Assembly (NCBI GenBank): GCA_964019425.1
Contig: OZ025788.1
Span: 1,488,001-1,552,000, forward strand
Source: Flectonema sp. DT1601
Taxonomy: Eukaryota
Direction: 5' to 3'
DNA length: 64,000 bases
Shown here piece after piece: positions 32,730 through 64,000 of the stretch (its first letter is position 1; each line of letters begins with the position of its first letter). Position numbers and translations under genes: made by a program. Under the pieces are notes generated by a model. The model was not told where the DNA came from. It did no database searches and was given only the letters and a program-made list of their open reading frames with translations.

Positions 32730-32798
32730 AGGATTCAAAATTGGACTTAACTTTACGCTCGCTTCGCTCGCGTTAAGTTAAGTCCAATTTTGTATCCT
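32730..32798. repeat. Inverted repeat with ~29-bp arms near the Helitron 3' end
   Basis: AGGATTCAAAATTGGACTTAACTTTACGC / GCGTTAAGTTAAGTCCAATTTTGTATCCT, 2 mismatches; shorter version at 45566-45597. Confidence 0.9.
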
Positions 32799-35831: not shown

Positions 35832-35862
<31 letters not shown>

Positions 35863-42544: not shown

Positions 42545-43373
42545 TTTACTTATTATCACTGAAAAAAACAGGTTAATAAAACATTTTTGAATATCAACTT
42601 AATGTACAATGTAATAATAAAGTGTGCTACTGACTGATGTTCTGTCCTGTGCCAAAAAAAAAAAAAAAAATGAAATTGAAAAAATGGAATTCAAAGATTT
42701 TTCTTTTACTTTTATTGGTTAGATGTGACAAAGTGGAAATAACTGCAACAAAACTTAACTATAACAAAAAGACAGCTTGGCACCTAAAATTTTCTCCACT
42801 CAGGAATTTATGAAGAGGTCAAGAGATAACTATAAAAAATGTGTTCCCATCTTTTTTAGGAGATCTGTAGCAAAAACCTATAGCAAAAAAAATTGAAAAA
42901 ATAAAATTTTTCAGAAAATATTATGAAGAATTTTTTTTTTACCAAATTGGCAACCTTACACCTAAATTTCAAAACCATACCAAAAAAAAATTTTCATCAC
43001 ATTTTATACTTTAAGAAAATGGTTACCCATCTTTTCTAGACCTGCTTGGGCACAAAAATCCAGCATTTTTCCTTAGGCAAAATTTTTTCTTTGTGTTCAA
43101 AAAAAAAAAAAATGAAATTGCTGTAACAAAGGCAAATAACTGCAAAAGTGAAAGAATTAGAGTGAAAAAAAGATCTGTAGCAAAAAAATTGAAAAAATAA
43201 ATTTTTCAGAAAATATTATAAAGGAAAATTTTTTTCTGAAGAATTTTTTTTTTACCAAATTGGCAACCATACACCCACAATTTCAAAACCATACCACTTA
43301 CTAACAAAATTTGTACTCTTTTCCTTGCTGTTTTCTTCTTACTAATTTTCCTGGTTGAAAAACACAAAAAATA

Positions 43374-43455
43374 TGCCGTAACAGGGAATTGAACCCGTGC
43401 CACGGCTACCGAATAGACTTAAGGTCGGTGACCATATCCACTCGGCTATGCAGGC
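43374..43455 (-). ncRNA. tRNA-like (pseudo-tRNA / Pol III A-box + B-box) element inside the Helitron
   Basis: 82 nt; A box TAGCCGAGTGG, B box GGTTCAATTCC, D stem GCC/GGT, ACCGA/TCGGT stem with an oversized loop, mismatched acceptor stem, followed by T6. Confidence 0.6.
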
Positions 43456-44075
43456 CCTGGGATGTTCCATTTTTTATTCCATTTCTTATTTATTTAGTCA
43501 CATCCCCCCCCTGTCTTTCCACTTTATTTTTCTTCATTCTGAGCATTTTATAAACCATTCACAACAGGTTTATCGAACTTGTATCTGCAATGTGTGCGAC
43601 CCTGGGATGGAAATATAGGAATTTGGTTATATTAATAAGGGAATGACCATCTTCATCCATTTTGTATTGTTAAACTAATTAAGACAAAATTAAGAATTGA
43701 ACTGAGGTTATCGTTCATTACATTATTTTCAATAAAATAGAAATGTGAGAAGAACTACGGGATGGGGAATTTGGCGGAACGCAAGCCCCCCCCCCCCTCT
43801 GCCGTATTACATTATACCCTGGTTTTGGTTTCCCAGGGCTCACGATTAATTCAAAATTGAATAACTCGATTCCGTACTGCACTGAATGACAACACGGAAA
43901 AAGAGATGTGTATGCAGCTAAGTTAGAAACATTTATTATAATGTAAAGTATTTACGTCAATCGCAGAGTGTATACCTGCACTAACATTACCTTTAGTCAC
44001 TGTATCTCAGAACTAATGTTAAATTATCGTCTATGATACAAAACATTTGTATTTTACGTACAAACTCGAACAGTT

Positions 44076-44370
44076 AACCCCCCCCCAACCCCCCCAAGGG
44101 GGGGGAGCCACTAATAAAAGCCAACCTCTCCCGTACAAAGCCTGCCTGTCCCGTACAAAGTCCAACCTGAAAAACAAATTTGCTACTAATGGATGATTAA
44201 GCTGGGAAGAGTGCAAGCCCCCCCCCCAACCCCCCCCAAGGGGGGGGAGCCACTAATAAAAGCCAACCTCCCCTGTACAAAGTCTGCCTGTCCCGTACAA
44301 AGTCCAAGTTGAAAAACAAATTTGCTACTAATGGATGATTAAGCTGGGAAGAGTGCAAGCCCCCCCCCAA
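44076..44370. repeat. Tandem ~140-bp duplication containing C7-AA-G7/8 palindromes in the Helitron 5' region
   Basis: CCCCCCCAAGGGGGGGAGCCACTAATAAAAGCCAACCTC...GCTGGGAAGAGTGCAAGCCC occurs twice. Confidence 0.85.
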
Positions 44371-45323
44371 GTTTACTATTTGTGTAGGAAAGACCCCTTT
44401 ACCCAAAAAAAAATGAAATCAAAGATTGCTTTTTCAGAATAGCGAGATGTAACAGAGTGGCAAATAACTGCAAAAGTGAAAGAATTTATTTATTAAAACC
44501 CAAATTGTCTAAACTGTAACAAAAAGACAGCTTGGCACCTAAAATTTATTAAAAAGGAAAAAATTATTTCAAAAAAAAAAATTTTGCTAAATTGGCAACC
44601 ATACACCTAAATTTCAAAACCATACCAAAAAAAATTTTTCATCACATTTTATACTTTAAGAAAATGGTTACCCATCTTTTCTAGACCTGCCCGGGCGCAA
44701 AAATCCAGCATTTTTCCTTAGGCAAAATTTTTTCTTACATTTCTTACTTACTTCCTACTGAAGAAAATTGGCAGCTTAAATTTGCCCAGAAGTGCTACAT
44801 AAGCATTGGTAGTGGAAAGGTGGCAAATAACTGCAAAAATGAATGGGATTATTTATTACAACCCAAATTGTCTAAACCACAACAAAAAGACAGCTTGGCA
44901 CCAACTAAAATCTTCCTTCCACCTAGAATTTGTGAAGGCTTTTCAAGACCGATAGGTTGAGAGATAACCATAAAAAAGGTGTACCCATGTTTTTTTGGAG
45001 GTGAGTGGCGCAAAAAGCAGTAAAAAATAAAAAAAAAAAATTTCATGACAAAGGCAAAAGCAGCAATTTTCTTTCCACAAACGCATCAGACTGTCATTTG
45101 GTGGCGCCAACTTGCTACAGGTAAAACTCCACTTTTCTTTCCGCAATGTGCAACACCAGCCAACACTTACATAGCATTTAGAACCAGACCTTCTTGCGGG
45201 AAGGCACAGAAGCCTCATTCCCAGTGTGTAATTAGGTGAGGCCTGGCCTGGGTACCTGGCCCAGGACTTGGTGGATTTCCTCAGAACCCAAAATATCCCC
45301 GATGCTGACAACTATATAGGAGA

Positions 45324-45427: not shown

Positions 45428-48400
45428 CTAGAGATACCCCTTCCAGGCTCGCGTTGCTCGCACACAACTTTTTCTTTTTAAGCTTTCTGAACAAACATTA
45501 TTTTTACAACCAAGTCACGTCTGTTTTTATTCCCTGGCTAGGTACCCGTCCAGGGTACAAATTTGAACTTAACTTCACGCTCGCGTAAAGTTAAGTTTGA
45601 AAGCAACTTTTTATTATTATTACTTTTCTGCAATTTTTATTTATAAATAAGTTTTCGATAAGGTGGGAAGTAACGGACTGGGAGCTTTTGGCTCCTGCCC
45701 TATTCCTCCTGATGTAAACATTCTTTTTTTTTTTTTTTTTTCTTTTTAACAGGCCCAAAGGGCGACAATGAAAGATGCTGACCAAGGAAAAATATTCAAA
45801 TGAATTTTCGTTTCAAAGAAACGAACAGGATTAAGGGAGAGGCAGAAAAAAAAAAAAAAAATAATATGAAGAGGAAATAATCAAACATGAAAAAAAAAAA
45901 AAAAATAAAAATAAATAAATAAACGTTATATATAAGCAATTTCTTTTTTCTTTCGCAATTTTTTATTTATTTATTACTTTCCTGTCCCAACGGGACGACA
46001 AATGAAAAATGTCCTCCCTTAGCTGAAAATGCACACTGCACCCTGTTTTATCAAGTCCTTTGTTTTTGTTTTTCTGAAAGATATCTGTAGTTGTTGTTAT
46101 ATTAATATGCTAGCACGAAAACGACGGCTAGGTTTATGATGGTTGGATATGTGGCTTAGGTTATCTGTTTGTTACATTTGGAAGTATTTTACAACAGGTT
46201 TATCGAACCTGTATCTGTATCAATGTGTGCGACCCTGGGATGGGAATATAGGAATTTAGTTATATTAATAAGGTTATCGTTCATTATTCCCAATGAAATA
46301 GAAATGTGGGAAGAACTATGGGATGGCAGAACGCAGCCCCCCCCCCCAACCCCCCCCAAGGGGGGAGCCACTAATAAAGGCCAACCTCCTGAAAAAGAAT
46401 CAAGAAAAAACAAAAATGCCCTCACCCAAGGTCGAACTGGACGGTTTACAGCCATTTTGGGGTTTGTAAAGAATGGTTAGTTCGAAAGAAAGATTTTTTC
46501 TGAAGAATTTTTTTTTAACTACCTACTAAATTGGCAACCATACACTTAAATTTCAAAACCATACTAAAAAAGAAATTTCATCACATTTTATACTTTAAGA
46601 AAATGGTTACCCATCTTTTTTAGACCTGCTCGGGCACAAAAATCCAGCATTTTTCCTTAGGCAAAAATAAATCTTACTTACTTCCTACTGAAGAAAATTG
46701 GCAGCTTAAATTTGTTTGCAGGAAAAAAGTAAGCAGCTAAGATTTGCTTGTGGGAAGAAAATAAGCAGCCAAAATTTGCTTGCGGGAAGAGAATCAGCAG
46801 CCAAAATTTGCTTGCGGGAAGAAAATAAGCAGCTAAAATTTGCTTGCGGGAAGAAAATAAGCAGCCAAAATTTGCTTGCGGGAAGGGAATCAGCAGCCAA
46901 AATTTGCTTGCGGGAAGAAAATAAGCAGCCAAAATTTGCTTGCGGGAAGAAAATAAGCAGCTAAGATTTGCTTGCGGGAAGAAAATAAGCAGCTAAAATT
47001 TGCTAGCGGGAAGAAAATAAGCAGCCAAAATTTGCTTGCGGGAAGAAAATAAGCAGCTAAGATTTGCTTGCGGGAAGAAAATAAGCAGCTAAAATTTGCT
47101 TGCGGGAAGAAAATAAGCAGCTAAAATTTGCTAGCGGGAAGAAAATAAGCAGCCAAAATTTGCTTGCGGGAAGAAAATAAGCAGCTAAAATTTGCTTGCG
47201 GGAAGAAAATAAGCAGCTAAAATTTGCTTGCGGGAAGAGAATCAGCAGCCAAAATTTGCTTGCGGGAAGAAAATAAGCAGCCAAAATTTGCTTGCGGGAA
47301 GAAAATAAGCAGCCAAAAATTGCTTGCGGGAAGAGAATCAGCAGCCAAAATTTGCTTGCGGGAAGAAAATAAGCAGCCAAAATTTGCTTGCGGGAAGAAA
47401 ATAAGCAGCTAAAATTTGCTTGCGGGAAGAAAATAAGCAGCCAAAATTTGCTTGCGGGAAGAGAATCAGCAGCCAAAATTTGCTTGCAGGAAGAAAATAT
47501 GCAGCCAAAATTTGCTTGCGGGAAGAAAATAAGCAGCCAAAATTTGCTTGCGGGAAGAAAATAAGCAGCCAAAAATTGCTTGCGGGAAGAGAATCAGCAG
47601 CCAAAATTTGCTTGCGGGAAGAAAATAAGCAGCCAAAATTTGCTTGCGGGAAGAGAATCAGCAGCCAAAATTTGCTTGCAGGAAGAGAATCAGCAGCCAA
47701 AATTTGCTTGCGGGAAGAAAATAAGCAGCCAAAATTTGCTTGCGGGAAGAAAATAAGCAGCCAAAAATTGCTTGCGGGAAGAGAATCAGCAGCCAAAATT
47801 TGCTTGCGGGAAGAAAATAAGCAGCCAAAATTTGCTTGCGGGAAGAGAATCAGCAGCCAAAATTTGCTTGCAGGAAGAAAATATGCAGCCAAAATTTGCT
47901 TGCGGGAAGAAAATAAGCAGCCAAAATTTGCTTGCGGGAAGAGAATCAGCAGCCAAAATTTGCTTGCGGGAAGAAAATAAGCAGCCAAAATTTGCTTGCG
48001 GGAAGAAAATAAGCAGCCAAAATTTGCTTGCGGGAAGAGAATCAGTAGCCAAAACTTGCTTGCGGGAAGAAAATAAGCAGCTAAAATTTGCTTGCGGGAA
48101 GAAAATAAGCAGCTAAAATTTGCTTGCGGGAAGAAAATAAGCAGCTAAGATTTGCTTGCGGGAAGAGAATCAGCAGCCAAAATTTGCTTGCGGGAAGAGA
48201 ATCAGCAGCTAAAATTTGCTTGCAAGAAGAAAATTAGCAGCCAAAATTTGCTCAGGGGTGCTACATAAGCATTGGTTGCAGAAAAGTGGCAAAAATGAAA
48301 GGAATTATTTATTAAAACCCAAATTGTCTAAACCATAACAAAAAGACAGCTTGGCACCAAAACTCTAAAACCTATTCTCCTCAGGGGATTTGTGAAGCCT

Positions 48401-49313
48401 TTTCGAGATCGATAGGCCAAGGGATAACCATAAAAAAGGTGTAACCATGATTTCTTGGAGGTGAGTGGCACAAAGAGCAGTAAAAAAAAATATCCCGTGA
48501 CAAAGGCAAATAACTGCAAAAGCAGCAATTCTCTTTCCGCAAACGCCCCCCCGTGGGTCATCAGGTCATTTGGTAGTGCCAACCTGCAACAGGTTAACAT
48601 GCAACACCCTACCCTACTCTACCCCACTCTACCCTACTTTCTTCCCGCAATGCGTGACACCATTCAACACTTACGTAGCACTTAGCACCAGGCCTGCTTG
48701 CGGGGAGAAACAGAAGCCCCATTCCCAGTACGGAAGTAGCTAGGCCTGGCGCTTACATAGCACTTCTGGGCGACCTAATATTATCCCTGTAATGCGTGGC
48801 ACTATTACGTAGCACTCAGCACCAGGCCTGCTAGCAGGAAGAAACAGAAGCCTCATTCCCAGTACGGAAGTAGCTAGGCCTGGCCAGCTTACAGTGCTGC
48901 GTAAGTTCTGACTGGCAAACAACTGCAAAACTTTTTTCTCCACACAGAAATTTGAAGACTTTTTGGGGCCGATAGATCGAGAGATAACCATAAAAAAAGC
49001 AAAAAGTGGTAAAAAAAAAAAAAAAAATTCAGTGACAAAGGCAAATTTCTTTCTGCAAACGCCCGCCGTGGATCATCAGACTGTCATTTGGTAGCGCCGA
49101 CTTGCCACAGGTCAATATGCAACGCTACTTTTCTTTCTGTAATGCGTGGCACCAGTCAACACTTATGTTGCACTTAGAACCAGACCTTCTTGCGGGAATG
49201 CAAAGAAGAATTAGTGTGTAATTAGGTGAGGCCTGGCCTGGGTACCTGGCCCAGGACTTGGTGGATTTCCTCAGAACCCAAAATATCCCCAATGCTGACA
49301 ATTATATAGGAGA
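45428..49313 (-). mobile_element. Non-autonomous Helitron (3,886 bp) of the same family
   Basis: Same 5' TCTCCTATATA and 3' GGGGTATCTCTAG termini, homologous subterminal regions, no RepHel ORF, same insertion phase. Confidence 0.92.
46690..48252. repeat. 32-bp minisatellite AAATTTGCTTGCGGGAAGAAAATAAGCAGCCA, about 48 copies, inside the non-autonomous Helitron
   Basis: Directly visible, with variant units (GAGAATCA, GCTAA). Confidence 0.95.
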
Positions 49314-52021
49314 AACCCGCAAACCCGCAAACCCGCAAACCCGCAAACCCGCAAACCCGCAAACCCGCAAACCCGCAAACCCGCAAACCCGCAAACCCGC
49401 AAACCCGCAAACCCGCAAACCCGCAAACCCGCAAACCCGCAAACCCGCAAACCCGCAAACCCGCAAACCCGCAAACCCGCAAACCCGCAAACCCGCAAAC
49501 CCGCAAACCCGCAAACCCGCAAACCCGCAAACCCGCAAACCCGCAAACCCGCAAACCCGCAAACCCGCAAACCCGCAAACCCGCAAACCCGCAAACCCGC
49601 AAACCCGCAAACCCGCAAACCCGCAAACCCGCAAACCCGCAAACCCGCAAACCCGCAAACCCGCAAACCCGCAAACCCGCAAACCCGCAAACCCGCAAAC
49701 CCGCAAACCCGCAAACCCGCAAACCCGCAAACCCGCAAACCCGCAAACCCGCAAACCCGCAAACCCGCAAACCCGCAAACCCGCAAACCCGCAAACCCGC
49801 AAACCCGCAAACCCGCAAACCCGCAAACCCGCAAACCCGCAAACCCGCAAACCCGCAAACCCGCAAACCCGCAAACCCGCAAACCCGCAAACCCGCAAAC
49901 CCGCAAACCCGCAAACCCGCAAACCCGCAAACCCGCAAACCCGCAAACCCGCAAACCCGCAAACCCGCAAACCCGCAAACCCGCAAACCCGCAAACCCGC
50001 AAACCCGCAAACCCGCAAACCCGCAAACCCGCAAACCCGCAAACCCGCAAACCCGCAAACCCGCAAACCCGCAAACCCGCAAACCCGCAAACCCGCAAAC
50101 CCGCAAACCCGCAAACCCGCAAACCCGCAAACCCGCAAACCCGCAAACCCGCAAACCCGCAAACCCGCAAACCCGCAAACCCGCAAACCCGCAAACCCGC
50201 AAACCCGCAAACCCGCAAACCCGCAAACCCGCAAACCCGCAAACCCGCAAACCCGCAAACCCGCAAACCCGCAAACCCGCAAACCCGCAAACCCGCAAAC
50301 CCGCAAACCCGCAAACCCGCAAACCCGCAAACCCGCAAACCCGCAAACCCGCAAACCCGCAAACCCGCAAACCCGCAAACCCGCAAACCCGCAAACCCGC
50401 AAACCCGCAAACCCGCAAACCCGCAAACCCGCAAACCCGCAAACCCGCAAACCCGCAAACCCGCAAACCCGCAAACCCGCAAACCCGCAAACCCGCAAAC
50501 CCGCAAACCCGCAAACCCGCAAACCCGCAAACCCGCAAACCCGCAAACCCGCAAACCCGCAAACCCGCAAACCCGCAAACCCGCAAACCCGCAAACCCGC
50601 AAACCCGCAAACCCGCAAACCCGCAAACCCGCAAACCCGCAAACCCGCAAACCCGCAAACCCGCAAACCCGCAAACCCGCAAACCCGCAAACCCGCAAAC
50701 CCGCAAACCCGCAAACCCGCAAACCCGCAAACCCGCAAACCCGCAAACCCGCAAACCCGCAAACCCGCAAACCCGCAAACCCGCAAACCCGCAAACCCGC
50801 AAACCCGCAAACCCGCAAACCCGCAAACCCGCAAACCCGCAAACCCGCAAACCCGCAAACCCGCAAACCCGCAAACCCGCAAACCCGCAAACCCGCAAAC
50901 CCGCAAACCCGCAAACCCGCAAACCCGCAAACCCGCAAACCCGCAAACCCGCAAACCCGCAAACCCGCAAACCCGCAAACCCGCAAACCCGCAAACCCGC
51001 AAACCCGCAAACCCGCAAACCCGCAAACCCGCAAACCCGCAAACCCGCAAACCCGCAAACCCGCAAACCCGCAAACCCGCAAACCCGCAAACCCGCAAAC
51101 CCGCAAACCCGCAAACCCGCAAACCCGCAAACCCGCAAACCCGCAAACCCGCAAACCCGCAAACCCGCAAACCCGCAAACCCGCAAACCCGCAAACCCGC
51201 AAACCCGCAAACCCGCAAACCCGCAAACCCGCAAACCCGCAAACCCGCAAACCCGCAAACCCGCAAACCCGCAAACCCGCAAACCCGCAAACCCGCAAAC
51301 CCGCAAACCCGCAAACCCGCAAACCCGCAAACCCGCAAACCCGCAAACCCGCAAACCCGCAAACCCGCAAACCCGCAAACCCGCAAACCCGCAAACCCGC
51401 AAACCCGCAAACCCGCAAACCCGCAAACCCGCAAACCCGCAAACCCGCAAACCCGCAAACCCGCAAACCCGCAAACCCGCAAACCCGCAAACCCGCAAAC
51501 CCGCAAACCCGCAAACCCGCAAACCCGCAAACCCGCAAACCCGCAAACCCGCAAACCCGCAAACCCGCAAACCCGCAAACCCGCAAACCCGCAAACCCGC
51601 AAACCCGCAAACCCGCAAACCCGCAAACCCGCAAACCCGCAAACCCGCAAACCCGCAAACCCGCAAACCCGCAAACCCGCAAACCCGCAAACCCGCAAAC
51701 CCGCAAACCCGCAAACCCGCAAACCCGCAAACCCGCAAACCCGCAAACCCGCAAACCCGCAAACCCGCAAACCCGCAAACCCGCAAACCCGCAAACCCGC
51801 AAACCCGCAAACCCGCAAACCCGCAAACCCGCAAACCCGCAAACCCGCAAACCCGCAAACCCGCAAACCCGCAAACCCGCAAACCCGCAAACCCGCAAAC
51901 CCGCAAACCCGCAAACCCGCAAACCCGCAAACCCGCAAACCCGCAAACCCGCAAACCCGCAAACCCGCAAACCCGCAAACCCGCAAACCCGCAAACCCGC
52001 AAACCCGCAAACCCGCAAACC
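49314..52021. repeat. (CCCGCAAA)n satellite, about 338 units
   Basis: Perfect 8-bp repeat. Confidence 0.99.
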
Positions 52022-52208
52022 TAACTACAGCGGGGAACCGGAACTTCGAAGTACAGCCGTCAGCATCATTTTCTCGCCATCGTTTGGCGCATCGATACAT
52101 CCTATCAGAATATATTTCATTTTATTTAGAGCTGTTTAACTCATGTTTACCTTTCCTTTTCTTTCAGCCGACGGGTTCGACCTATTAAACACTTAAACAA
52201 AAAGAAAA
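52020..52208 (+). repeat. Split direct repeat A1 (189 bp)
   Basis: Identical by eye to 56406-56594; contains a pyrimidine tract+CAG just before ORF1. Confidence 0.95.
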
Positions 52209-53441
52209 ATGGGTGATACTTATGACTTCGAATTTCCTAACTCATTAGTTACGCTATGGGGAAATACCGGTGAGGAACTGCTACCGAGAAGACACATAAA
52301 TATGCCAGATGTATTGGGTCGGATCCCATGGGCTGATTGGACAAGTGAAGCAGGCAAAATGATGATGATAATGGTGCTTGCAAGGTGCCTTGGGTGTGAT
52401 AGAGAAGTAATTCAAGGTATTTCACCGAGAAAGGTTGCAATATTAATTGACGCGCTGCGAGGTCGGAATAATTTAATTGTTGATAGCATCGCCGAAGCTG
52501 TACAGAACGGGACACTAGCAAGCCTTTCTGGGATGCCTCAAGATCCGTTTAGAAAAGTTGAAGCGATTGTAACGACAGTTGCAAATAGACAAAGCCAGCA
52601 AGACGAGAATCTCACAGGACTGTATCGTAGTACCGCTCAAGAATTTGCGAAGCATGAAGGAGCGATCCGTGCAGTAAGTAGCGAAGCAGCAAATGCCACG
52701 GCCGCCGCGACAACAGCTGTTAAAAGTACCAATGATAGACAAGATTCGCTCGAGTCACGAACGGATGCTTTCGCAACAGATGTACTGAGTAGGCTGAACA
52801 GGCAGTCAAAGCTTATTGAGGAGCAGCAGGAAATGATCTCTAAGCAAGATAAACAAATTGCAAACTTGATGCGGGCGTCGTACAGATACGTCCACCCAAT
52901 GAGCGCGCAACCGGCGCCTCGCACGACTGCACCTGAACAGCCGGAGCCAAGGGCTCGGTATGAAGAACCGACTTCCGCTGAAGAAACAAGAATTCACAAT
53001 CCAGTCTCGCATACTGTCCGTTCCGTTGCGGAAGACCCTGATAGGTGGATGGAGTACGCAGATGCCAGTAACTTCCAACTGACGGAATTAATTCGAGAGT
53101 TGCGAACATGGGTTCCTAGCAAGAAAGGGGATCTGCAAGATGGGATGGAGGCGGTGATCGGTGCGATCGAAGTCATCTTGCATCCGGAACGGGACGCTGA
53201 AGACGCTGTGCTTGCCCTTGCCGACAGCTTGCAGGTATTAAGGTGTAAGGCAAGGGATGGATGGAAGGCGGCTGAAGCTTTTAAAGGTGAACTCTGGAGG
53301 GAACAGAATGTTGCCCCACGTTATGCGAAAGCATGGCGGGCGTCTAGCACAGCTAAGGTGAAGTCAAACTACGCTGCGCGGAAAGAAGTCTCTAGAGGTT
53401 CAAAAAACGAAGCTTCAAAGGGCGGCAGGTCCCATCAATGA
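52209..53441 (+). CDS. ORF1, gag-like coiled-coil protein of the YR retrotransposon
   Basis: 410-aa first ORF directly after repeat A1, with a central coiled coil and basic C-terminus; assigned by position. Confidence 0.75.
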   Translation: MGDTYDFEFPNSLVTLWGNTGEELLPRRHINMPDVLGRIPWADWTSEAGKMMMIMVLARCLGCDREVIQGISPRKVAILIDALRGRNNLIVDSIAEAVQNGTLASLSGMPQDPFRKVEAIVTTVANRQSQQDENLTGLYRSTAQEFAKHEGAIRAVSSEAANATAAATTAVKSTNDRQDSLESRTDAFATDVLSRLNRQSKLIEEQQEMISKQDKQIANLMRASYRYVHPMSAQPAPRTTAPEQPEPRARYEEPTSAEETRIHNPVSHTVRSVAEDPDRWMEYADASNFQLTELIRELRTWVPSKKGDLQDGMEAVIGAIEVILHPERDAEDAVLALADSLQVLRCKARDGWKAAEAFKGELWREQNVAPRYAKAWRASSTAKVKSNYAARKEVSRGSKNEASKGGRSHQ

Positions 53442-56146
53442 AAAGAACGCAAGTGGTTGGGGACGGGCGCACCAGCCACGCGAAAGTTAAAATGGCGCCG
53501 AAATTACCAGAAAAGTCCATTGTCCGGGTTGCAACCGACTTTTCCTACTACCCAAGAGACCCAACCGGAGCTGCCTATTCTGACGAGGGAAATTTTAAAC
53601 CATCTTGGGAAGAAAGACCGAACTCGCTCTGCGCATACAGAGGACGGCGTCAGCGCGGAAGACGCTTCGAAGAAGCTGGCCGACGTGGTCGGGAAGATGT
53701 GGGCAGCGAGTACATCGGCGAAGAGACGAAACCTCTGGGCAAGACTCTTATCGTGGGCGGAAGTGAACAGCTTGCCAGTAAACGCGGAAACCGCTGTCTT
53801 ATTCGTCCTTGCCACGAGGGTGAAACCACAAGGGCTACTTCAGTATGCAAAGTCCCTATCAGCAATCATGAAGTGTCTGGGAATGGACAATCGACAGCTA
53901 CTAACTCTTGCCACCGCGCTACGAGCAGACGGCGCAGCTATTCCGACAAAGCAAGCACGGCCAATTACAAGGGAGGCTCTCATGGCCTGGGCGGAGTCAT
54001 CATCGGACGAACTATGGCTGGCAACAATGATCTGCTGGAAGACAGCCTCAAGATGGGGCGAGGTTCAGGCACTCACGTCGGAGCAATTCATTCGAGTGGA
54101 GAGGGAGGAAGTGATCATCGACTGGCTCAGCACGCCGAAGCTTCGATCAGCAAATCCATTCGTCCCGTCACGTTGGACTGTGATACGGGGGAGCATGACG
54201 GGAGAGATCTGGTTGCTTTTAAAGGACAAGATTCCATTCGGGGCACTCACAAACAGAACAACAGAAATGTTGGATCGGATGTGGGGAAGGGATCCGAACA
54301 TGAAGGGATTTACAGCACACTCGATAAAGCGCGGCGCAGCAACAGTACTTTACGAAAACCTTGCAAAGGGAGCGGACTTACCGGAGCACATTATCTCTCG
54401 GACCCTGAAGCATGCGGAGAAGGAGACAGGGATATCATCAACATCGCTGAGGTACGGGGGTGCGCCAGCCGACATGGCAGTTGCTCTACAGACTTGGAAA
54501 GCCACCCAGCTCTTGTAAAACATGCACCGCATAGCATCTCGAGAAGGGGCCAGCGGACGAGGCTACCTGTCACAGCGGAAGAGAAGGCATCACCGCTTCA
54601 TGTTTCTTCTATAAAACTAATGAATGTTGACGGGCTTCGAGGGAGGCTGAACGACTCGGCAAGGGTGCGGTTTGATAGTGTCTGGGATATGGTATTCCCA
54701 AGGCAAACACCACCTTCGCGAAGCAGCACACACTCGAAACACTCAACTCTCCAGCCTAGCCATGCTGACGAACTGGTTAGTCGCTCTATCGCACGCCATG
54801 CTGAAGCAGGGGGGGTAATGCAAAATGTGCCGTTCACTGTTGTTGAGGAGAAGGCTGAGGGCTTACGCCAGCGATTCATACTCTGGACAAAGGGACTGAA
54901 CGACTGGGGCGAGGGTACTGGGTACCAAGCCGCCGTTCCACTGAAGCACATCTCAGCTTATCTTGGTGCTGTCAAGCAGGAGTGCGCCACAACTCGTGAC
55001 TTCAGAACAGGATTCTTTGCGATTGAAATTCCAACATATGCAAGACATCTCTTCAGGTTCCAAGATAGCTCTGGAAGATGGTTCGAGATGCAACGACTAC
55101 CGATGGGACATATTGGCGCCCCGGAACTAATGCACACGCTCGCCGCATCCGCTGCAGGACATCCCGACTACGTTAGAAGTGACATTGCCGTGCACTCCGT
55201 TGGTATTGACATCTTTATTGACAATATAAGGTACACAGGGGAGCGGAAGCATATTCTCGATGCGACGACAGTGCTTGATGAGACTGCTTCGGGTATGTCT
55301 ATTACATGGAAGGCTTCCGACTCACATACTGCTGCGACAACCTACACGTTCCTCGGGGCGGACTTTAATCATGAGCTTCGTACGGTAAGGGCTTCTGAGA
55401 AAATTCGACGCAAGATAAGTGGTGTGAATCTTTCCAACTGCACAGCTTCACAGCTCGAGTCACTCGGAGGAAGACTTGTTCACGCAAGCGCAATTGCAGG
55501 CGTTCCGATGGGTCAGTTCTGGTATGCAGTGAAGTTCCTTCGAAGGCTTGTCAACGGTCTCAATAGGGGGACCCGCCGTCCAGAAGCGAATGTTAACATC
55601 CCGCCGTCAGTTACCGCACAACTCTCTGCATGGTGCACTGCGGCTCTCAAGCAACAGACGATCTTCCAGCATGATAGCAGAAATTCAGTTACAACGTTCA
55701 TCGACGCTTCTATGACGGGATGGGGCGGCGTTATTATTGATGACTCAACAGCTGAAATTATTATCCTCGGCGGCTCCTGGACGCCATCAGAAGCACGCCT
55801 CCACATCAACGTTCTCGAATCTCTTGCATTATCTAAGACGCTTTCTCAGCTTCCCGTAAGATATAAGGGTGGCACCCTATCACTCTGGATCGATAACACT
55901 TCTGTTGTTGGTGCACTTCGAAAGAAACTCTGTGCTAGGTCAGCAGACTTAAACAAGAATGTCGTTCTTTCTTCTATAATATTCAAGAACCTCCAGCTCG
56001 ATGTTAACATCGGATGGGTCGCGTCAGCTAACAATCCAGCTGACATCCCATCACGCCTCCCAGAACACAAAATCTCATCGGCATCAACACTGCATACTGT
56101 CGAACTTGCGCTGCGGAGGTTTATTACAAGCGACGGGGTGGAGTGA
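53438..56146 (+). CDS. Reverse transcriptase / RNase H ORF; its N-terminal ~360 aa overlap the YR gene in another frame
   Basis: RT motifs RQRFIL, DFRTGFFAI, RLPMG, FIDN, FLG; RNase H motifs FIDAS, HINVLE, WIDNT, NPADIPSR. Confidence 0.92.
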   Translation: MKRTQVVGDGRTSHAKVKMAPKLPEKSIVRVATDFSYYPRDPTGAAYSDEGNFKPSWEERPNSLCAYRGRRQRGRRFEEAGRRGREDVGSEYIGEETKPLGKTLIVGGSEQLASKRGNRCLIRPCHEGETTRATSVCKVPISNHEVSGNGQSTATNSCHRATSRRRSYSDKASTANYKGGSHGLGGVIIGRTMAGNNDLLEDSLKMGRGSGTHVGAIHSSGEGGSDHRLAQHAEASISKSIRPVTLDCDTGEHDGRDLVAFKGQDSIRGTHKQNNRNVGSDVGKGSEHEGIYSTLDKARRSNSTLRKPCKGSGLTGAHYLSDPEACGEGDRDIINIAEVRGCASRHGSCSTDLESHPALVKHAPHSISRRGQRTRLPVTAEEKASPLHVSSIKLMNVDGLRGRLNDSARVRFDSVWDMVFPRQTPPSRSSTHSKHSTLQPSHADELVSRSIARHAEAGGVMQNVPFTVVEEKAEGLRQRFILWTKGLNDWGEGTGYQAAVPLKHISAYLGAVKQECATTRDFRTGFFAIEIPTYARHLFRFQDSSGRWFEMQRLPMGHIGAPELMHTLAASAAGHPDYVRSDIAVHSVGIDIFIDNIRYTGERKHILDATTVLDETASGMSITWKASDSHTAATTYTFLGADFNHELRTVRASEKIRRKISGVNLSNCTASQLESLGGRLVHASAIAGVPMGQFWYAVKFLRRLVNGLNRGTRRPEANVNIPPSVTAQLSAWCTAALKQQTIFQHDSRNSVTTFIDASMTGWGGVIIDDSTAEIIILGGSWTPSEARLHINVLESLALSKTLSQLPVRYKGGTLSLWIDNTSVVGALRKKLCARSADLNKNVVLSSIIFKNLQLDVNIGWVASANNPADIPSRLPEHKISSASTLHTVELALRRFITSDGVE
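53457..54518 (+). CDS. Tyrosine recombinase (start uncertain)
   Basis: Catalytic-type motifs WKTASRWGEV (R), TPK (K), HSIKRG, LKH, SLRY (Y). Confidence 0.88.
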   Translation: MGTGAPATRKLKWRRNYQKSPLSGLQPTFPTTQETQPELPILTREILNHLGKKDRTRSAHTEDGVSAEDASKKLADVVGKMWAASTSAKRRNLWARLLSWAEVNSLPVNAETAVLFVLATRVKPQGLLQYAKSLSAIMKCLGMDNRQLLTLATALRADGAAIPTKQARPITREALMAWAESSSDELWLATMICWKTASRWGEVQALTSEQFIRVEREEVIIDWLSTPKLRSANPFVPSRWTVIRGSMTGEIWLLLKDKIPFGALTNRTTEMLDRMWGRDPNMKGFTAHSIKRGAATVLYENLAKGADLPEHIISRTLKHAEKETGISSTSLRYGGAPADMAVALQTWKATQLL

Positions 56147-56874
56147 GGCAGGCCAACCGGTGCCGCTACTCGGACTGCTCACTCACATGGCTTTCTGCCA
56201 CGCTCAGCCGATAGCGACCACCACCTGCGGTCTACTTACCTCACTTCGTGAAAAGAATTTGTGAACTCTTATAGTTTAATTTCTCTATCCTTCCTAGTGA
56301 TAGACGAGCTACTTAGTTTTATCCATAGTTTCATGTTTTACTATTACATTTCTTCTACTCTTATCTTTCCTTCCTTTCTTTCAGGCTGTACAGGGGTTAT
56401 GGTTCCCTAACTACAGCGGGGAACCGGAACTTCGAAGTACAGCCGTCAGCATCATTTTCTCGCCATCGTTTGGCGCATCGATACATCCTATCAGAATATA
56501 TTTCATTTTATTTAGAGCTGTTTAACTCATGTTTACCTTTCCTTTTCTTTCAGCCGACGGGTTCGACCTATTAAACACTTAAACAAAAAGAAAACCCACC
56601 CACCGACCCCCTCGGCAGGCCAACCGGTGCCGCTACTCGGACTGCTCACTCACATGGCTTTCTGCCACGCTCAGCCGATAGCGACCACCACCTGCGGTCT
56701 ACTTACCTCACTTCGTGAAAAGAATTTGTGAACTCTTATAGTTTAATTTCTCTATCCTTCCTAGTGATAGACGAGCTACTTAGTTTTATCCATAGTTTCA
56801 TGTTTTACTATTACATTTCTTCTACTCTTATCTTTCCTTCCTTTCTTTCAGGCTGTACAGGGGTTATGGTTCCC
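56147..56874 (+). repeat. 3' repeat block B1 (56147-56407), A2 (56406-56594), 19-nt C-rich spacer, B2 (56614-56874)
   Basis: Direct sequence comparison; B copies are 261 bp and identical by eye. Confidence 0.95.
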
Positions 56875-59800
56875 CGCAAACCCGCAAACCCGCAAACCCG
56901 CAAACCCGCAAACCCGCAAACCCACAAACCCGCAAACCCGCAAACCCGCAAACCCGCAAACCCGCAAACCCGCAAACCCGCAAACCCGCAAACCCGCAAA
57001 CCCGCAAACCCGCAAACCCGCAAACCCGCAAACCCGCAAACCCGCAAACCCGCAAACCCGCAAACCCGCAAACCCGCAAACCCGCAAACCCGCAAACCCG
57101 CAAACCCGCAAACCCGCAAACCCGCAAACCCGCAAACCCGCAAACCCGCAAACCCGCAAACCCGCAAACCCGCAAACCCGCAAACCCGCAAACCCGCAAA
57201 CCCGCAAACCCGCAAACCCGCAAACCCGCAAACCCGCAAACCCGCAAACCCGCAAACCCGCAAACCCGCAAACCCGCAAACCCGCAAACCCGCAAACCCG
57301 CAAACCCGCAAACCCGCAAACCCGCAAACCCGCAAACCCGCAAACCCGCAAACCCGCAAACCCGCAAACCCGCAAACCCGCAAACCCGCAAACCCGCAAA
57401 CCCGCAAACCCGCAAACCCGCAAACCCGCAAACCCGCAAACCCGCAAACCCGCAAACCCGCAAACCCGCAAACCCGCAAACCCGCAAACCCGCAAACCCG
57501 CAAACCCGCAAACCCGCAAACCCGCAAACCCGCAAACCCGCAAACCCGCAAACCCGCAAACCCGCAAACCCGCAAACCCGCAAACCCGCAAACCCGCAAA
57601 CCCGCAAACCCGCAAACCCGCAAACCCGCAAACCCGCAAACCCGCAAACCCGCAAACCCGCAAACCCGCAAACCCGCAAACCCGCAAACCCGCAAACCCG
57701 CAAACCCGCAAACCCGCAAACCCGCAAACCCGCAAACCCGCAAACCCGCAAACCCGCAAACCCGCAAACCCGCAAACCCGCAAACCCGCAAACCCGCAAA
57801 CCCGCAAACCCGCAAACCCGCAAACCCGCAAACCCGCAAACCCGCAAACCCGCAAACCCGCAAACCCGCAAACCCGCAAACCCGCAAACCCGCAAACCCG
57901 CAAACCCGCAAACCCGCAAACCCGCAAACCCGCAAACCCGCAAACCCGCAAACCCGCAAACCCGCAAACCCGCAAACCCGCAAACCCGCAAACCCGCAAA
58001 CCCGCAAACCCGCAAACCCGCAAACCCGCAAACCCGCAAACCCGCAAACCCGCAAACCCGCAAACCCGCAAACCCGCAAACCCGCAAACCCGCAAACCCG
58101 CAAACCCGCAAACCCGCAAACCCGCAAACCCGCAAACCCGCAAACCCGCAAACCCGCAAACCCGCAAACCCGCAAACCCGCAAACCCGCAAACCCGCAAA
58201 CCCGCAAACCCGCAAACCCGCAAACCCGCAAACCCGCAAACCCGCAAACCCGCAAACCCGCAAACCCGCAAACCCGCAAACCCGCAAACCCGCAAACCCG
58301 CAAACCCGCAAACCCGCAAACCCGCAAACCCGCAAACCCGCAAACCCGCAAACCCGCAAACCCGCAAACCCGCAAACCCGCAAACCCGCAAACCCGCAAA
58401 CCCGCAAACCCGCAAACCCGCAAACCCGCAAACCCGCAAACCCGCAAACCCGCAAACCCGCAAACCCGCAAACCCGCAAACCCGCAAACCCGCAAACCCG
58501 CAAACCCGCAAACCCGCAAACCCGCAAACCCGCAAACCCGCAAACCCGCAAACCCGCAAACCCGCAAACCCGCAAACCCGCAAACCCGCAAACCCGCAAA
58601 CCCGCAAACCCGCAAACCCGCAAACCCGCAAACCCGCAAACCCGCAAACCCGCAAACCCGCAAACCCGCAAACCCGCAAACCCGCAAACCCGCAAACCCG
58701 CAAACCCGCAAACCCGCAAACCCGCAAACCCGCAAACCCGCAAACCCGCAAACCCGCAAACCCGCAAACCCGCAAACCCGCAAACCCGCAAACCCGCAAA
58801 CCCGCAAACCCGCAAACCCGCAAACCCGCAAACCCGCAAACCCGCAAACCCGCAAACCCGCAAACCCGCAAACCCGCAAACCCGCAAACCCGCAAACCCG
58901 CAAACCCGCAAACCCGCAAACCCGCAAACCCGCAAACCCGCAAACCCGCAAACCCGCAAACCCGCAAACCCGCAAACCCGCAAACCCGCAAACCCGCAAA
59001 CCCGCAAACCCGCAAACCCGCAAACCCGCAAACCCGCAAACCCGCAAACCCGCAAACCCGCAAACCCGCAAACCCGCAAACCCGCAAACCCGCAAACCCG
59101 CAAACCCGCAAACCCGCAAACCCGCAAACCCGCAAACCCGCAAACCCGCAAACCCGCAAACCCGCAAACCCGCAAACCCGCAAACCCGCAAACCCGCAAA
59201 CCCGCAAACCCGCAAACCCGCAAACCCGCAAACCCGCAAACCCGCAAACCCGCAAACCCGCAAACCCGCAAACCCGCAAACCCGCAAACCCGCAAACCCG
59301 CAAACCCGCAAACCCGCAAACCCGCAAACCCGCAAACCCGCAAACCCGCAAACCCGCAAACCCGCAAACCCGCAAACCCGCAAACCCGCAAACCCGCAAA
59401 CCCGCAAACCCGCAAACCCGCAAACCCGCAAACCCGCAAACCCGCAAACCCGCAAACCCGCAAACCCGCAAACCCGCAAACCCGCAAACCCGCAAACCCG
59501 CAAACCCGCAAACCCGCAAACCCGCAAACCCGCAAACCCGCAAACCCGCAAACCCGCAAACCCGCAAACCCGCAAACCCGCAAACCCGCAAACCCGCAAA
59601 CCCGCAAACCCGCAAACCCGCAAACCCGCAAACCCGCAAACCCGCAAACCCGCAAACCCGCAAACCCGCAAACCCGCAAACCCGCAAACCCGCAAACCCG
59701 CAAACCCGCAAACCCGCAAACCCGCAAACCCGCAAACCCGCAAACCCGCAAACCCGCAAACCCGCAAACCCGCAAACCCGCAAACCCGCAAACCCGCAAA

Positions 59801-62800
59801 CCCGCAAACCCGCAAACCCGCAAACCCGCAAACCCGCAAACCCGCAAACCCGCAAACCCGCAAACCCGCAAACCCGCAAACCCGCAAACCCGCAAACCCG
59901 CAAACCCGCAAACCCGCAAACCCGCAAACCCGCAAACCCGCAAACCCGCAAACCCGCAAACCCGCAAACCCGCAAACCCGCAAACCCGCAAACCCGCAAA
60001 CCCGCAAACCCGCAAACCCGCAAACCCGCAAACCCGCAAACCCGCAAACCCGCAAACCCGCAAACCCGCAAACCCGCAAACCCGCAAACCCGCAAACCCG
60101 CAAACCCGCAAACCCGCAAACCCGCAAACCCGCAAACCCGCAAACCCGCAAACCCGCAAACCCGCAAACCCGCAAACCCGCAAACCCGCAAACCCGCAAA
60201 CCCGCAAACCCGCAAACCCGCAAACCCGCAAACCCGCAAACCCGCAAACCCGCAAACCCGCAAACCCGCAAACCCGCAAACCCGCAAACCCGCAAACCCG
60301 CAAACCCGCAAACCCGCAAACCCGCAAACCCGCAAACCCGCAAACCCGCAAACCCGCAAACCCGCAAACCCGCAAACCCGCAAACCCGCAAACCCGCAAA
60401 CCCGCAAACCCGCAAACCCGCAAACCCGCAAACCCGCAAACCCGCAAACCCGCAAACCCGCAAACCCGCAAACCCGCAAACCCGCAAACCCGCAAACCCG
60501 CAAACCCGCAAACCCGCAAACCCGCAAACCCGCAAACCCGCAAACCCGCAAACCCGCAAACCCGCAAACCCGCAAACCCGCAAACCCGCAAACCCGCAAA
60601 CCCGCAAACCCGCAAACCCGCAAACCCGCAAACCCGCAAACCCGCAAACCCGCAAACCCGCAAACCCGCAAACCCGCAAACCCGCAAACCCGCAAACCCG
60701 CAAACCCGCAAACCCGCAAACCCGCAAACCCGCAAACCCGCAAACCCGCAAACCCGCAAACCCGCAAACCCGCAAACCCGCAAACCCGCAAACCCGCAAA
60801 CCCGCAAACCCGCAAACCCGCAAACCCGCAAACCCGCAAACCCGCAAACCCGCAAACCCGCAAACCCGCAAACCCGCAAACCCGCAAACCCGCAAACCCG
60901 CAAACCCGCAAACCCGCAAACCCGCAAACCCGCAAACCCGCAAACCCGCAAACCCGCAAACCCGCAAACCCGCAAACCCGCAAACCCGCAAACCCGCAAA
61001 CCCGCAAACCCGCAAACCCGCAAACCCGCAAACCCGCAAACCCGCAAACCCGCAAACCCGCAAACCCGCAAACCCGCAAACCCGCAAACCCGCAAACCCG
61101 CAAACCCGCAAACCCGCAAACCCGCAAACCCGCAAACCCGCAAACCCGCAAACCCGCAAACCCGCAAACCCGCAAACCCGCAAACCCGCAAACCCGCAAA
61201 CCCGCAAACCCGCAAACCCGCAAACCCGCAAACCCGCAAACCCGCAAACCCGCAAACCCGCAAACCCGCAAACCCGCAAACCCGCAAACCCGCAAACCCG
61301 CAAACCCGCAAACCCGCAAACCCGCAAACCCGCAAACCCGCAAACCCGCAAACCCGCAAACCCGCAAACCCGCAAACCCGCAAACCCGCAAACCCGCAAA
61401 CCCGCAAACCCGCAAACCCGCAAACCCGCAAACCCGCAAACCCGCAAACCCGCAAACCCGCAAACCCGCAAACCCGCAAACCCGCAAACCCGCAAACCCG
61501 CAAACCCGCAAACCCGCAAACCCGCAAACCCGCAAACCCGCAAACCCGCAAACCCGCAAACCCGCAAACCCGCAAACCCGCAAACCCGCAAACCCGCAAA
61601 CCCGCAAACCCGCAAACCCGCAAACCCGCAAACCCGCAAACCCGCAAACCCGCAAACCCGCAAACCCGCAAACCCGCAAACCCGCAAACCCGCAAACCCG
61701 CAAACCCGCAAACCCGCAAACCCGCAAACCCGCAAACCCGCAAACCCGCAAACCCGCAAACCCGCAAACCCGCAAACCCGCAAACCCGCAAACCCGCAAA
61801 CCCGCAAACCCGCAAACCCGCAAACCCGCAAACCCGCAAACCCGCAAACCCGCAAACCCGCAAACCCGCAAACCCGCAAACCCGCAAACCCGCAAACCCG
61901 CAAACCCGCAAACCCGCAAACCCGCAAACCCGCAAACCCGCAAACCCGCAAACCCGCAAACCCGCAAACCCGCAAACCCGCAAACCCGCAAACCCGCAAA
62001 CCCGCAAACCCGCAAACCCGCAAACCCGCAAACCCGCAAACCCGCAAACCCGCAAACCCGCAAACCCGCAAACCCGCAAACCCGCAAACCCGCAAACCCG
62101 CAAACCCGCAAACCCGCAAACCCGCAAACCCGCAAACCCGCAAACCCGCAAACCCGCAAACCCGCAAACCCGCAAACCCGCAAACCCGCAAACCCGCAAA
62201 CCCGCAAACCCGCAAACCCGCAAACCCGCAAACCCGCAAACCCGCAAACCCGCAAACCCGCAAACCCGCAAACCCGCAAACCCGCAAACCCGCAAACCCG
62301 CAAACCCGCAAACCCGCAAACCCGCAAACCCGCAAACCCGCAAACCCGCAAACCCGCAAACCCGCAAACCCGCAAACCCGCAAACCCGCAAACCCGCAAA
62401 CCCGCAAACCCGCAAACCCGCAAACCCGCAAACCCGCAAACCCGCAAACCCGCAAACCCGCAAACCCGCAAACCCGCAAACCCGCAAACCCGCAAACCCG
62501 CAAACCCGCAAACCCGCAAACCCGCAAACCCGCAAACCCGCAAACCCGCAAACCCGCAAACCCGCAAACCCGCAAACCCGCAAACCCGCAAACCCGCAAA
62601 CCCGCAAACCCGCAAACCCGCAAACCCGCAAACCCGCAAACCCGCAAACCCGCAAACCCGCAAACCCGCAAACCCGCAAACCCGCAAACCCGCAAACCCG
62701 CAAACCCGCAAACCCGCAAACCCGCAAACCCGCAAACCCGCAAACCCGCAAACCCGCAAACCCGCAAACCCGCAAACCCGCAAACCCGCAAACCCGCAAA

Positions 62801-64000
62801 CCCGCAAACCCGCAAACCCGCAAACCCGCAAACCCGCAAACCCGCAAACCCGCAAACCCGCAAACCCGCAAACCCGCAAACCCGCAAACCCGCAAACCCG
62901 CAAACCCGCAAACCCGCAAACCCGCAAACCCGCAAACCCGCAAACCCGCAAACCCGCAAACCCGCAAACCCGCAAACCCGCAAACCCGCAAACCCGCAAA
63001 CCCGCAAACCCGCAAACCCGCAAACCCGCAAACCCGCAAACCCGCAAACCCGCAAACCCGCAAACCCGCAAACCCGCAAACCCGCAAACCCGCAAACCCG
63101 CAAACCCGCAAACCCGCAAACCCGCAAACCCGCAAACCCGCAAACCCGCAAACCCGCAAACCCGCAAACCCGCAAACCCGCAAACCCGCAAACCCGCAAA
63201 CCCGCAAACCCGCAAACCCGCAAACCCGCAAACCCGCAAACCCGCAAACCCGCAAACCCGCAAACCCGCAAACCCGCAAACCCGCAAACCCGCAAACCCG
63301 CAAACCCGCAAACCCGCAAACCCGCAAACCCGCAAACCCGCAAACCCGCAAACCCGCAAACCCGCAAACCCGCAAACCCGCAAACCCGCAAACCCGCAAA
63401 CCCGCAAACCCGCAAACCCGCAAACCCGCAAACCCGCAAACCCGCAAACCCGCAAACCCGCAAACCCGCAAACCCGCAAACCCGCAAACCCGCAAACCCG
63501 CAAACCCGCAAACCCGCAAACCCGCAAACCCGCAAACCCGCAAACCCGCAAACCCGCAAACCCGCAAACCCGCAAACCCGCAAACCCGCAAACCCGCAAA
63601 CCCGCAAACCCGCAAACCCGCAAACCCGCAAACCCGCAAACCCGCAAACCCGCAAACCCGCAAACCCGCAAACCCGCAAACCCGCAAACCCGCAAACCCG
63701 CAAACCCGCAAACCCGCAAACCCGCAAACCCGCAAACCCGCAAACCCGCAAACCCGCAAACCCGCAAACCCGCAAACCCGCAAACCCGCAAACCCGCAAA
63801 CCCGCAAACCCGCAAACCCGCAAACCCGCAAACCCGCAAACCCGCAAACCCGCAAACCCGCAAACCCGCAAACCCGCAAACCCGCAAACCCGCAAACCCG
63901 CAAACCCGCAAACCCGCAAACCCGCAAACCCGCAAACCCGCAAACCCGCAAACCCGCAAACCCGCAAACCCGCAAACCCGCAAACCCGCAAACCCGCAAA
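56873..64000. repeat. (CCCGCAAA)n satellite, >7.1 kb, running off the window
   Basis: Near-perfect 8-bp repeat; one CCCACAAA variant near 56921. Confidence 0.99.

What the first reader, a model, noticed from the sequence alone, without database searches (positions are those of the whole stretch)
52020..56874. Intact, young VIPER/TATE-like YR retrotransposon inserted in a non-TTAGGG repeat, with a readable recombination core
Seen: order gag-YR-RT/RH and identical split direct repeats. The internal B1/A2 junction reads GGTTCCCTAACT, the left flank AAACC-TAACT and the right flank GGTTCCCC-GCAAA. These fit a crossover between a circle junction GGTTC[CC]TAACT and the target AAA[CC]CGC, with all six Cs conserved. 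Known: Leishmania TATE inserts at a fixed position in TTAGGG telomeric repeats. Inference: a relative that uses a different repeat. Its junction still contains CCCTAAC, resembling the canonical telomere repeat, which may be a relic or chance.
Basis: partly seen in the sequence, partly recalled or inferred. Interest (0 to 1): 0.72.

Follow-up and report, generated by a model that had tools for sequence, protein, structure and literature searches.

The report
VIPER retrotransposon targeting an octamer array
This is an intact, recently copied jumping gene of the VIPER type, probably from a diplonemid protist; it and a sister family sit at the same base of an eight-letter repeat, so its recombinase likely recognises that repeat, which would give a simple handle on how this little-studied class inserts itself.

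Summary
52020-56874 has gag, a tyrosine recombinase (YR) with its catalytic residues, RT/RNase H and 100% identical split direct repeats. Only three cut points, all inside the CC core, reproduce both junctions.

The interpretation needs correcting. YR and RT motifs match published VIPER, not TATE. TATE uses a TT core on the opposite strand sense, and the array has the wrong polarity for a right-hand telomere. The "telomere relic" is unsupported.

Added here:
(1) A 530-bp solo repeat of a sister VIPER family (31245-31778) sits in the same octamer at the same register, and a third family's 5' junction fits.
(2) Both in-window families carry a GGTTCCC...GGGAAC inverted repeat across the circle junction.
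(3) Two Helitron-type elements occupy the same array at one fixed register.
(4) A slippery heptamer, then gag-TGA-YR in one frame, with pol in -1, recurs in 5 of 5 published VIPER records read. This predicts frameshift plus readthrough; I found no paper on it.

Missing: a tree with named references, flanks of other full-length copies, and the array's role. Earlier scan notes saw related elements elsewhere, but none on this DNA.

The parts
49313..52021 (+). Left (AAACCCGC)n array, 338 perfect units; target of the insertion
52020..52208 (+). A1 repeat; starts with the CC core; GGGAAC 11 nt inside; pyrimidine tract near its end
52209..53441 (+). gag-like ORF, 410 aa, ends in TGA; no Pfam family; named by position only
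53402..53408 (+). Slippery heptamer A-AAA-AAC in the gag frame, 10 codons before the gag stop; predicted -1 frameshift into pol
   Evidence: same arrangement in published VIPER copies
53442..54518 (+). Tyrosine recombinase ORF, same frame as gag directly behind the TGA; R204 K233 H293 R297 H324 Y338; first Met is residue 86
53396..56146 (+). pol ORF in the -1 frame, stop-free across the whole YR gene; RT (FIDN motif) and RNase H in 54521-56143
56147..56407 (+). B1 repeat
56401..56425 (+). B1/A2 junction = model of the circle junction: inverted repeat GGTTCCC-n11-GGGAACC with the CC core at the end of the left arm
   Evidence: (z -2.3; 5 of 200 shuffles fold as well)
56406..56594 (+). A2 repeat
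56595..56613 (+). C-rich linker (CCCACC...); similar linkers in VIPER, TATE and the short element
56614..56874 (+). B2 repeat, ends GGTTCCC
56873..64000 (+). Right (AAACCCGC)n array, about 891 units, in phase with the left array, one variant unit, runs off the window
31245..31778 (+). Solo A-linker-B (SIRE-like) remnant of a sister VIPER family, inserted in a small octamer array at the same register; ends GGTTCC, GGGAAC 12 nt inside the 5' end
32599..45323 (-). Helitron, 12.7 kb, 5' TC ... CTAG 3', inserted in the octamer array at GGGTT^T; Rep/helicase/OTU ORF 34196-42544
45428..49313 (-). Non-autonomous partner of that Helitron, 3.9 kb, same ends, same register in the array

Best explanation
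This is an intact, young VIPER-type tyrosine-recombinase retrotransposon sitting at one fixed register of the (AAACCCGC)n array, likely because its recombinase recognises that repeat. Shown in the sequence: gene order, identical split repeats, a full catalytic residue set, clean junctions with a 2-nt CC core, and the same register in a second family. Inferred from the model for split-repeat elements: RNA is reverse-transcribed, the internal B1/A2 copy serves as template to rejoin the ends into a circle, and YR recombines the circle junction GGTTC[CC]TAAC with the target AAA[CC]CGC without a target duplication. Inferred: the GGTTCCC...GGGAAC inverted repeat is the recombinase's site on the element, either as duplex arms or as a folded single strand. 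Inferred: one mRNA gives Gag, Gag-pol by -1 frameshift at A-AAA-AAC, and Gag-YR by readthrough of the TGA. A solo A-B remnant would arise by A1 x A2 recombination and keeps both junctions. The host is likely a diplonemid. The array is not a plain chromosome end; it behaves as a shared landing pad, and its role is untested.
For: Anatomy. Crossover enumeration. Youth: repeats 100% identical; four full-length 902-aa pol proteins on four contigs differ from the window's by 0, 1, 2 and 19 residues, the identical one possibly the window's own. Second family: same left and right junctions although its repeats do not align with the main ones (406 and 303 of 500 shuffles reach the score). Its A+linker is fused to a pol 99% identical to the sister family P0002 in ORF P0246 (tblastn E 1e-12); P0002 is in the same clade as the window's pol (FastTree support 0.985). 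Third junction: the tail of P0041 after an octamer run is compatible with GGGAAC at exactly 11 nt and at no other offset of 40 tested; 128 of 20000 random peptides fit at offset 11 or 12. Recoding: 0 stops in the pol frame over YR against a mean of 9.4 in synonymous resampling (1 of 5000 with none). 13 of 15 overlap changes in P0239 map to sites synonymous in YR. Slippery heptamer 7-14 codons before an in-frame gag-TGA-YR junction in 5 of 5 VIPER records read.
Against: Only two complete insertions are seen, plus one back-translated half junction; the flanks of the other full-length copies were out of reach (no genome; searches gave no flanks). The 5' end at 30897 shares 47 nt including flank with the short element, so it may be a local duplication and is not counted. 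No named VIPER or TATE was found among 30 relatives looked up, so membership rests on motifs read by eye. The junction hairpin is modest (z -2.3) and I did not see it in the C. fasciculata or T. cruzi junctions. No strong structure follows the slippery site (z -0.76). An AUG overlaps the gag stop, so pol could start by stop-restart instead; in T. cruzi an ATG directly follows the TGA in the YR frame, so readthrough is not needed there.
Confidence: 0.75

Rival explanations
1. An ordinary VIPER with no real sequence preference: it needs only a CC match, inserts widely, and copies survive in the array because it is large and gene-free.
For: The array covers more than 9 kb of this window and also holds Helitrons; few insertions seen. 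T. cruzi VIPER is dispersed and merely enriched at centromeres (PMC13508446, passages).
Against: Both in-window families use the same strand and the same one of two CC positions in the unit; a third fits. The short element sits in an array of only about 12 units next to unique DNA.
Confidence: 0.14
2. One reading: a TATE relative that moved from TTAGGG to a different telomeric repeat and keeps CCCTAAC as a relic of the old target.
For: Both targets contain GGGTT, and the cut GGG^TT is among the compatible cut points for both. The junction has a 7-nt match to the hexamer repeat.
Against: Motifs are VIPER's, not TATE's. The YR ORF is 358 codons against about 980 aa in L. braziliensis TATE. Core and orientation differ. 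The sister family lacks the T of CCCTAAC. The array is C-rich on + with genes to its left, the wrong polarity for a right telomere.
Confidence: 0.07
3. The context is secondary or an artefact: the array expanded or was homogenised after a random insertion, or the assembler stitched the element into a collapsed repeat.
For: 338 perfect units in a row suggest recent homogenisation or consensus smoothing. No long read spanning the junctions was seen.
Against: Junctions are base-exact and in phase and recur in a short array flanked by unique DNA. Two Helitron-type elements share their own different fixed register.
Confidence: 0.04

Closest known systems
VIPER of Trypanosoma cruzi Dm28c and Crithidia fasciculata, with its short form SIRE (PMC6681497: abstract, results, discussion and three of six parts of supplement MOESM10 read)
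   Same: gag-YR-RT/RH with pol overlapping YR; A1...B1-A2-B2 of similar size (T. cruzi 173/219 bp); C-rich linker; YR motifs MW..ST, W.TASRW, HSIKRGA; RT motifs PF.VVEEK, RLPMG, IDNIR; slippery site and in-frame TGA at the gag end; short A-linker-B form.
   Different: No fixed repeat target is described for VIPER in the papers read; the host is likely a diplonemid; no CCHC box in gag (by eye); a junction inverted repeat that I did not see in the kinetoplastid copies read.
TATE of Leishmania braziliensis (PMC2696322 section 6 read; PMC6681497 part 1 of 4 of MOESM11 and two passages of MOESM9)
   Same: Works alike: fixed-register insertion in a short GGGTT-containing tandem repeat through a 2-nt core; same repeat layout; TCAAAAAAC slippery motifs.
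   Different: Different YR and RT motifs, a much longer YR ORF, a TT core, sense along the G-rich strand, and a telomeric hexamer target.
DIRS1-like elements (PMC3266345, PMC7192593; passages)
   Same: Integration modelled as recombination between a short circle-junction word and the same word in the target, with no duplication.
   Different: They have inverted terminal repeats and an internal complementary region, and a 3-nt core, mostly NTT.
Ngaro elements of Cafeteria burkhardae (PMC8547959; passages)
   Same: Split direct repeats, solo AB remnants, biased insertion into another repeated element.
   Different: RT is ORF2 and precedes YR; the bias is for virophage DNA, not for a base in a tandem repeat.
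'TATE'-like ORFs of Diplonema papillatum (PMC10161547; passage)
   Same: Nearest named proteins: 19 of 62 RT hits (40-49% identity) and 2 of 21 YR hits (49-52%) are D. papillatum proteins.
   Different: Mentioned only as ORFs resembling TATE, without structure, ends or target; by motif these relatives are VIPER-type.

Membership tests
VIPER-like superfamily (order DIRS) | Three ORFs in the order gag, YR, RT/RH, with YR and RT/RH overlapping | tested here: met
VIPER-like superfamily (order DIRS) | Split direct repeats A1 ... B1-A2-B2 | tested here: met
   100% identity
VIPER-like superfamily (order DIRS) | No target-site duplication | tested here: met
   holds modulo the 8-bp period
VIPER-like superfamily (order DIRS) | YR catalytic residues R-K-H-R-H-Y | tested here: met
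   R204 K233 H293 R297 H324 Y338; Cre-like fold
VIPER clade | RT/RH groups with named VIPER sequences in a tree | tested here: inconclusive
   Tree of 149 of 198 proteins holds no named kinetoplastid sequence; 0 of 30 looked up were named VIPER or TATE
VIPER clade | VIPER-type YR and RT motifs | tested here: met
   By eye against published copies; B. saltans VIPER is more divergent
TATE | TATE-type YR and RT motifs and long YR ORF | tested here: not met
TATE | Insertion at GGG^TTA of the telomeric hexamer with a TT core | tested here: not met
   CC core in AAACCCGC, opposite strand sense
Ngaro / PAT | RT/RH precedes YR | tested here: not met
   YR precedes RT; Ngaro order from the passage, PAT order recalled
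DIRS1-like | Inverted terminal repeats and internal complementary region | tested here: not met
   0 inverted pairs of 20 nt or more
Order DIRS in general | Circular DNA intermediate carrying the B/A junction | not testable with these tools
   Only low-depth contigs were available; the junction also exists internally, so short reads cannot show a circle
Helitron (neighbouring element) | Rep and PIF1 helicase ORF; 5' TC and 3' CTRR ends | tested here: met
   inserted T^T rather than the usual A^T (recalled); the 3' hairpin was not tested

The most novel reading that the evidence does not exclude
The GC-rich (AAACCCGC)n array is the centromeric repeat of this likely diplonemid, and two unrelated machines, VIPER recombinases of several families and a Helitron, have each evolved base-exact targeting of it. 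VIPER acquired repeat targeting independently of TATE, and VIPERs in general make Gag, Gag-YR and Gag-pol from one mRNA by paired readthrough and -1 frameshift signals about 30 bases apart.
Probability: 0.2. Interest if true: 0.82.

Novelty: new variant of a known kind. Interest (0 to 1): 0.56.

Why it matters
Integration by split-repeat YR retrotransposons rests largely on a model. Intact copies with a trivial synthetic target (an 8-mer repeat), a 2-nt core and a shared junction motif make that step directly assayable. They would also show that repeat targeting arose twice within the VIPER-like group. The paired recoding signals answer how three overlapping genes can be expressed in hosts with polycistronic transcription, and they are testable in T. 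cruzi VIPER too. Diplonemid kinetochores are largely unexplained, with only a CENP-A candidate (bioRxiv 10.1101/2024.08.06.606595; passages). VIPER is enriched at GC-rich T. cruzi centromeres (PMC13508446; passages). An internal GC-rich array that collects mobile elements is therefore a concrete centromere candidate.

Tried and rejected
No whole genome was held, so no genome-wide flank logo.

Sequencing runs: one holder at depth about 2, contigs only, no RNA holder listed. Laying them gave no loose ends or joints.

The search for related loci found no relatives in metagenome contigs (76 pattern matches, 0 confirmed) or viral contigs (13, 0 confirmed).

Naming distant relatives failed: 0 of 30 were named kinetoplastid proteins. 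The tree dropped 49 of 198 proteins (2 without a profile hit, 47 partial) and is midpoint-rooted, so it shows only the local clade.

The protein atlas did not complete. A PDB sequence search with YR found nothing significant. No tRNA genes in the window.

Rejected: my first idea that the octamer is a microsatellite inside one dispersed repeat; the shared flanks are the two ends of Helitron-type elements. Rejected: nucleotide homology between the two families' repeats. Not counted as independent: the 5' fragment at 30879-30992.

Literature: the octamer in five rotations or strands found 0 papers. Searches for VIPER frameshift or readthrough (term look-ups) found no description. Lorenzi 2006, Peacock 2007 and Poulter's reviews were not read, nor the .fas supplements or Fig. 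2 of PMC6681497, and any of these may mention the frames or target sites. Two diplonemid genome notes say nothing on telomeres or transposons in their main text.

Full report
Observation. The stretch 52020-56874 lies between two in-phase arrays of AAACCCGC, with 338 units on the left and about 891 on the right, running off the window. It has split direct repeats A1 ... B1-A2-linker-B2, each pair 100% identical (189 and 261 nt), and three intact ORFs. Pfam barely sees them. The YR alignment shows R204, K233, H293, H324 and Y338 invariant in 19 sequences, with R297 in the window's copy, and its model (pLDDT 81.6) matches Cre. The pol model (pLDDT 91.3) matches retroviral and caulimoviral RTs. 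The RT motif is FIDN; an xxDN form dominates the 196 relatives scored and is seen in published VIPER and TATE, so it is a family trait, not damage. Four full-length pol proteins on four contigs differ from the window's by 0, 1, 2 and 19 residues, so the family is young; the identical one may be the window's own.

The core. Taking the internal B1/A2 junction as the circle junction, only three cut points reproduce both flanks, all within CC. It is also what the standard model of this order predicts: recombination between a short junction word and the same word in the target, without duplication (PMC3266345 and PMC7192593, passages). One insertion cannot show specificity, and whole 8-bp units gained or lost would be invisible.

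Which family. The nearest named proteins are from Diplonema papillatum: 19 of 62 RT hits at 40-49% and 2 of 21 YR hits. With the long, co-oriented, uninterrupted host ORFs at 92-29121, this makes a diplonemid host likely but not shown. No named VIPER or TATE turned up among 30 relatives looked up, so the tree cannot place the element against references. I therefore compared it by eye with the published copies in the supplements of PMC6681497. C. fasciculata and T. cruzi VIPER encode MW..ST, W.TASRW, HSIKRGA, PF.VVEEK, RLPMG and WIDNIR, as here. L. braziliensis TATE encodes WGFAAR, PSIRKG, FTVPELKG and RTLPTG and has a YR ORF near 980 aa. The element is VIPER-type, not TATE. TATE has a TT core at GGG^TTA (PMC2696322, section 6) and reads along the G-rich strand; this element has a CC core and reads along the C-rich strand. 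It works like TATE but is not one.

Evidence for targeting. A 530-bp piece at 31245-31778 interrupts a small octamer array with the same left junction (AAACC|) and the same right junction (GGTTCC|CCGCAAA); the 13-mer GGTTCCCCGCAAA occurs only at these two places in the window. Its sequence does not align with the main repeats (406 and 303 of 500 shuffles score as high), so it is not a copy of this element. It has an A-linker-B layout with a C-rich linker like SIRE or the solo AB repeats of Ngaro (PMC6681497; PMC8547959). Its A and linker match the start of ORF P0246 (E 1e-12), whose remainder is 99% identical to pol of the sister family P0002. A third family may add a half junction: P0041, a truncated pol, runs through octamer repeats into a tail compatible with GGGAAC at offset 11 only; 128 of 20000 random peptides fit at 11 or 12. 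This is back-translation and is weak. The main and short elements have GGGAAC at 11 and 12 nt, the partner of the terminal GGTTCCC. The main junction folds as a hairpin (z -2.3; 5 of 200 shuffles). I take this inverted repeat as the likely recombinase site; I did not see it in the kinetoplastid junctions read. CCCTAAC is not shared by the sister family, which argues against a needed telomere relic.

The array. It is 62.5% GC against about 40-45% in the host genes. It is C-rich on the + strand with genes to its left, the reverse of a right-hand telomere. It is also split by a 12.7-kb Helitron (PIF1 E 2e-43, Helitron_like_N E 9e-42) and a 3.9-kb element with the same TC...CTAG ends, both at GGGTT^T on the minus strand. 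The block from 31.2 kb to the window end is thus one repeat with at least four insertions of two classes, each class at its own fixed base. The octamer was found in 0 papers. T. cruzi centromeres are GC-rich and VIPER-enriched (PMC13508446, passages) and diplonemid kinetochores are largely unexplained, so a centromeric role is a lead, not a result.

Expression. YR follows gag in the same frame behind one TGA; its first Met is residue 86, at the end of a predicted helix conserved in relatives. Pol is in the -1 frame and opens two codons before A-AAA-AAC, one of 2 slippery heptamers in the gag frame. It stays stop-free over all of YR: 0 stops against a mean of 9.4, and 1 of 5000 synonymous resamplings had none. 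In copy P0239, 15 of 19 changes fall in the overlap and 13 of them map to sites synonymous in YR, so the extension is kept open rather than conserved as protein. In the 5 published VIPER records whose junction I read (B. saltans 1, C. fasciculata 3, T. cruzi 1; parts 1, 2 and 5 of 6 of MOESM10), all 5 have a slippery heptamer 7-14 codons before a TGA followed by YR in frame (frames counted by eye). I infer -1 frameshift for pol and readthrough for YR. Against this: no strong downstream structure, an AUG overlapping the stop that could restart pol, an own ATG for YR in T. cruzi, and the option of internal trans-splicing. My searches found no description, but the original VIPER paper was not available.

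Verdict. Real and intact; a VIPER, not a TATE; probably targeted to the octamer, on two full insertions and one half. This is a new variant of a known kind. Its value lies in making integration and recoding testable and in pointing at the array. Earlier scan notes describe related elements in other genomes and nothing on this DNA; one led me to the solo-AB paper.

Noticed in passing
window 32599-45323 and 45428-49313 (-): Autonomous Helitron with OTU domains and zinc-finger-like N-terminus, plus a non-autonomous partner, both inserted at the same T^T register of the octamer array: possible repeat-targeted Helitron.
   Followed up: partly
window 31811-32187 (-): 377-bp insert between two small octamer arrays that also ends in CTAG, at a different register; family unknown.
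   Followed up: no
window 30879-30992: Fragment repeating the 5' junction of the short element (47 nt, including a variant octamer flank) followed by an inverted 70-nt piece of its A repeat.
   Followed up: partly
window 92-20335 (+): 6747-aa ORF made of about 199 copies of a 33-aa Thr/Gln/Leu/Pro-rich unit (99-bp repeat, 97% matches), mucin-like; open at full length.
   Followed up: no
window 46690-48252: 32-bp tandem array (about 49 copies) inside the non-autonomous Helitron; its unit contains TTGCGGG, seven letters of the octamer's other strand.
   Followed up: no
window 33341-33880 and 34282-34826: Duplicated 3' part of the Helitron ORF (86% identity) giving a 135-aa ORF at 33475-33882 (-).
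   Followed up: no
window 43376-43460: tRNA-gene-like sequence inside the Helitron (by eye, minus strand); ARAGORN called nothing.
   Followed up: partly
window 29120-30900: Broken ORF pieces (longest 144 aa, 29980-30414) between the last host gene and the first octamer array; not identified.
   Followed up: no
window 24654-25946 and 26647-29121 (+): Host genes: a thioredoxin-domain (PDI-like) protein and an EXS-family protein, both uninterrupted.
   Followed up: partly
proteins P0072-P0198: 1134 cluster representatives score E 1e-30 or better to the RT/RH profile; the 30 relatives looked up were unnamed metagenome or assembly proteins, so VIPER-like elements appear far more diverse than the named set.
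   Followed up: no
PMC6681497 supplement MOESM11, L. braziliensis TATE: TCAAAAAAC at the gag stop and TCAAAAAACGAA inside the YR ORF (the same 12-mer as window 53400-53411): TATE may use two -1 frameshifts.
   Followed up: no
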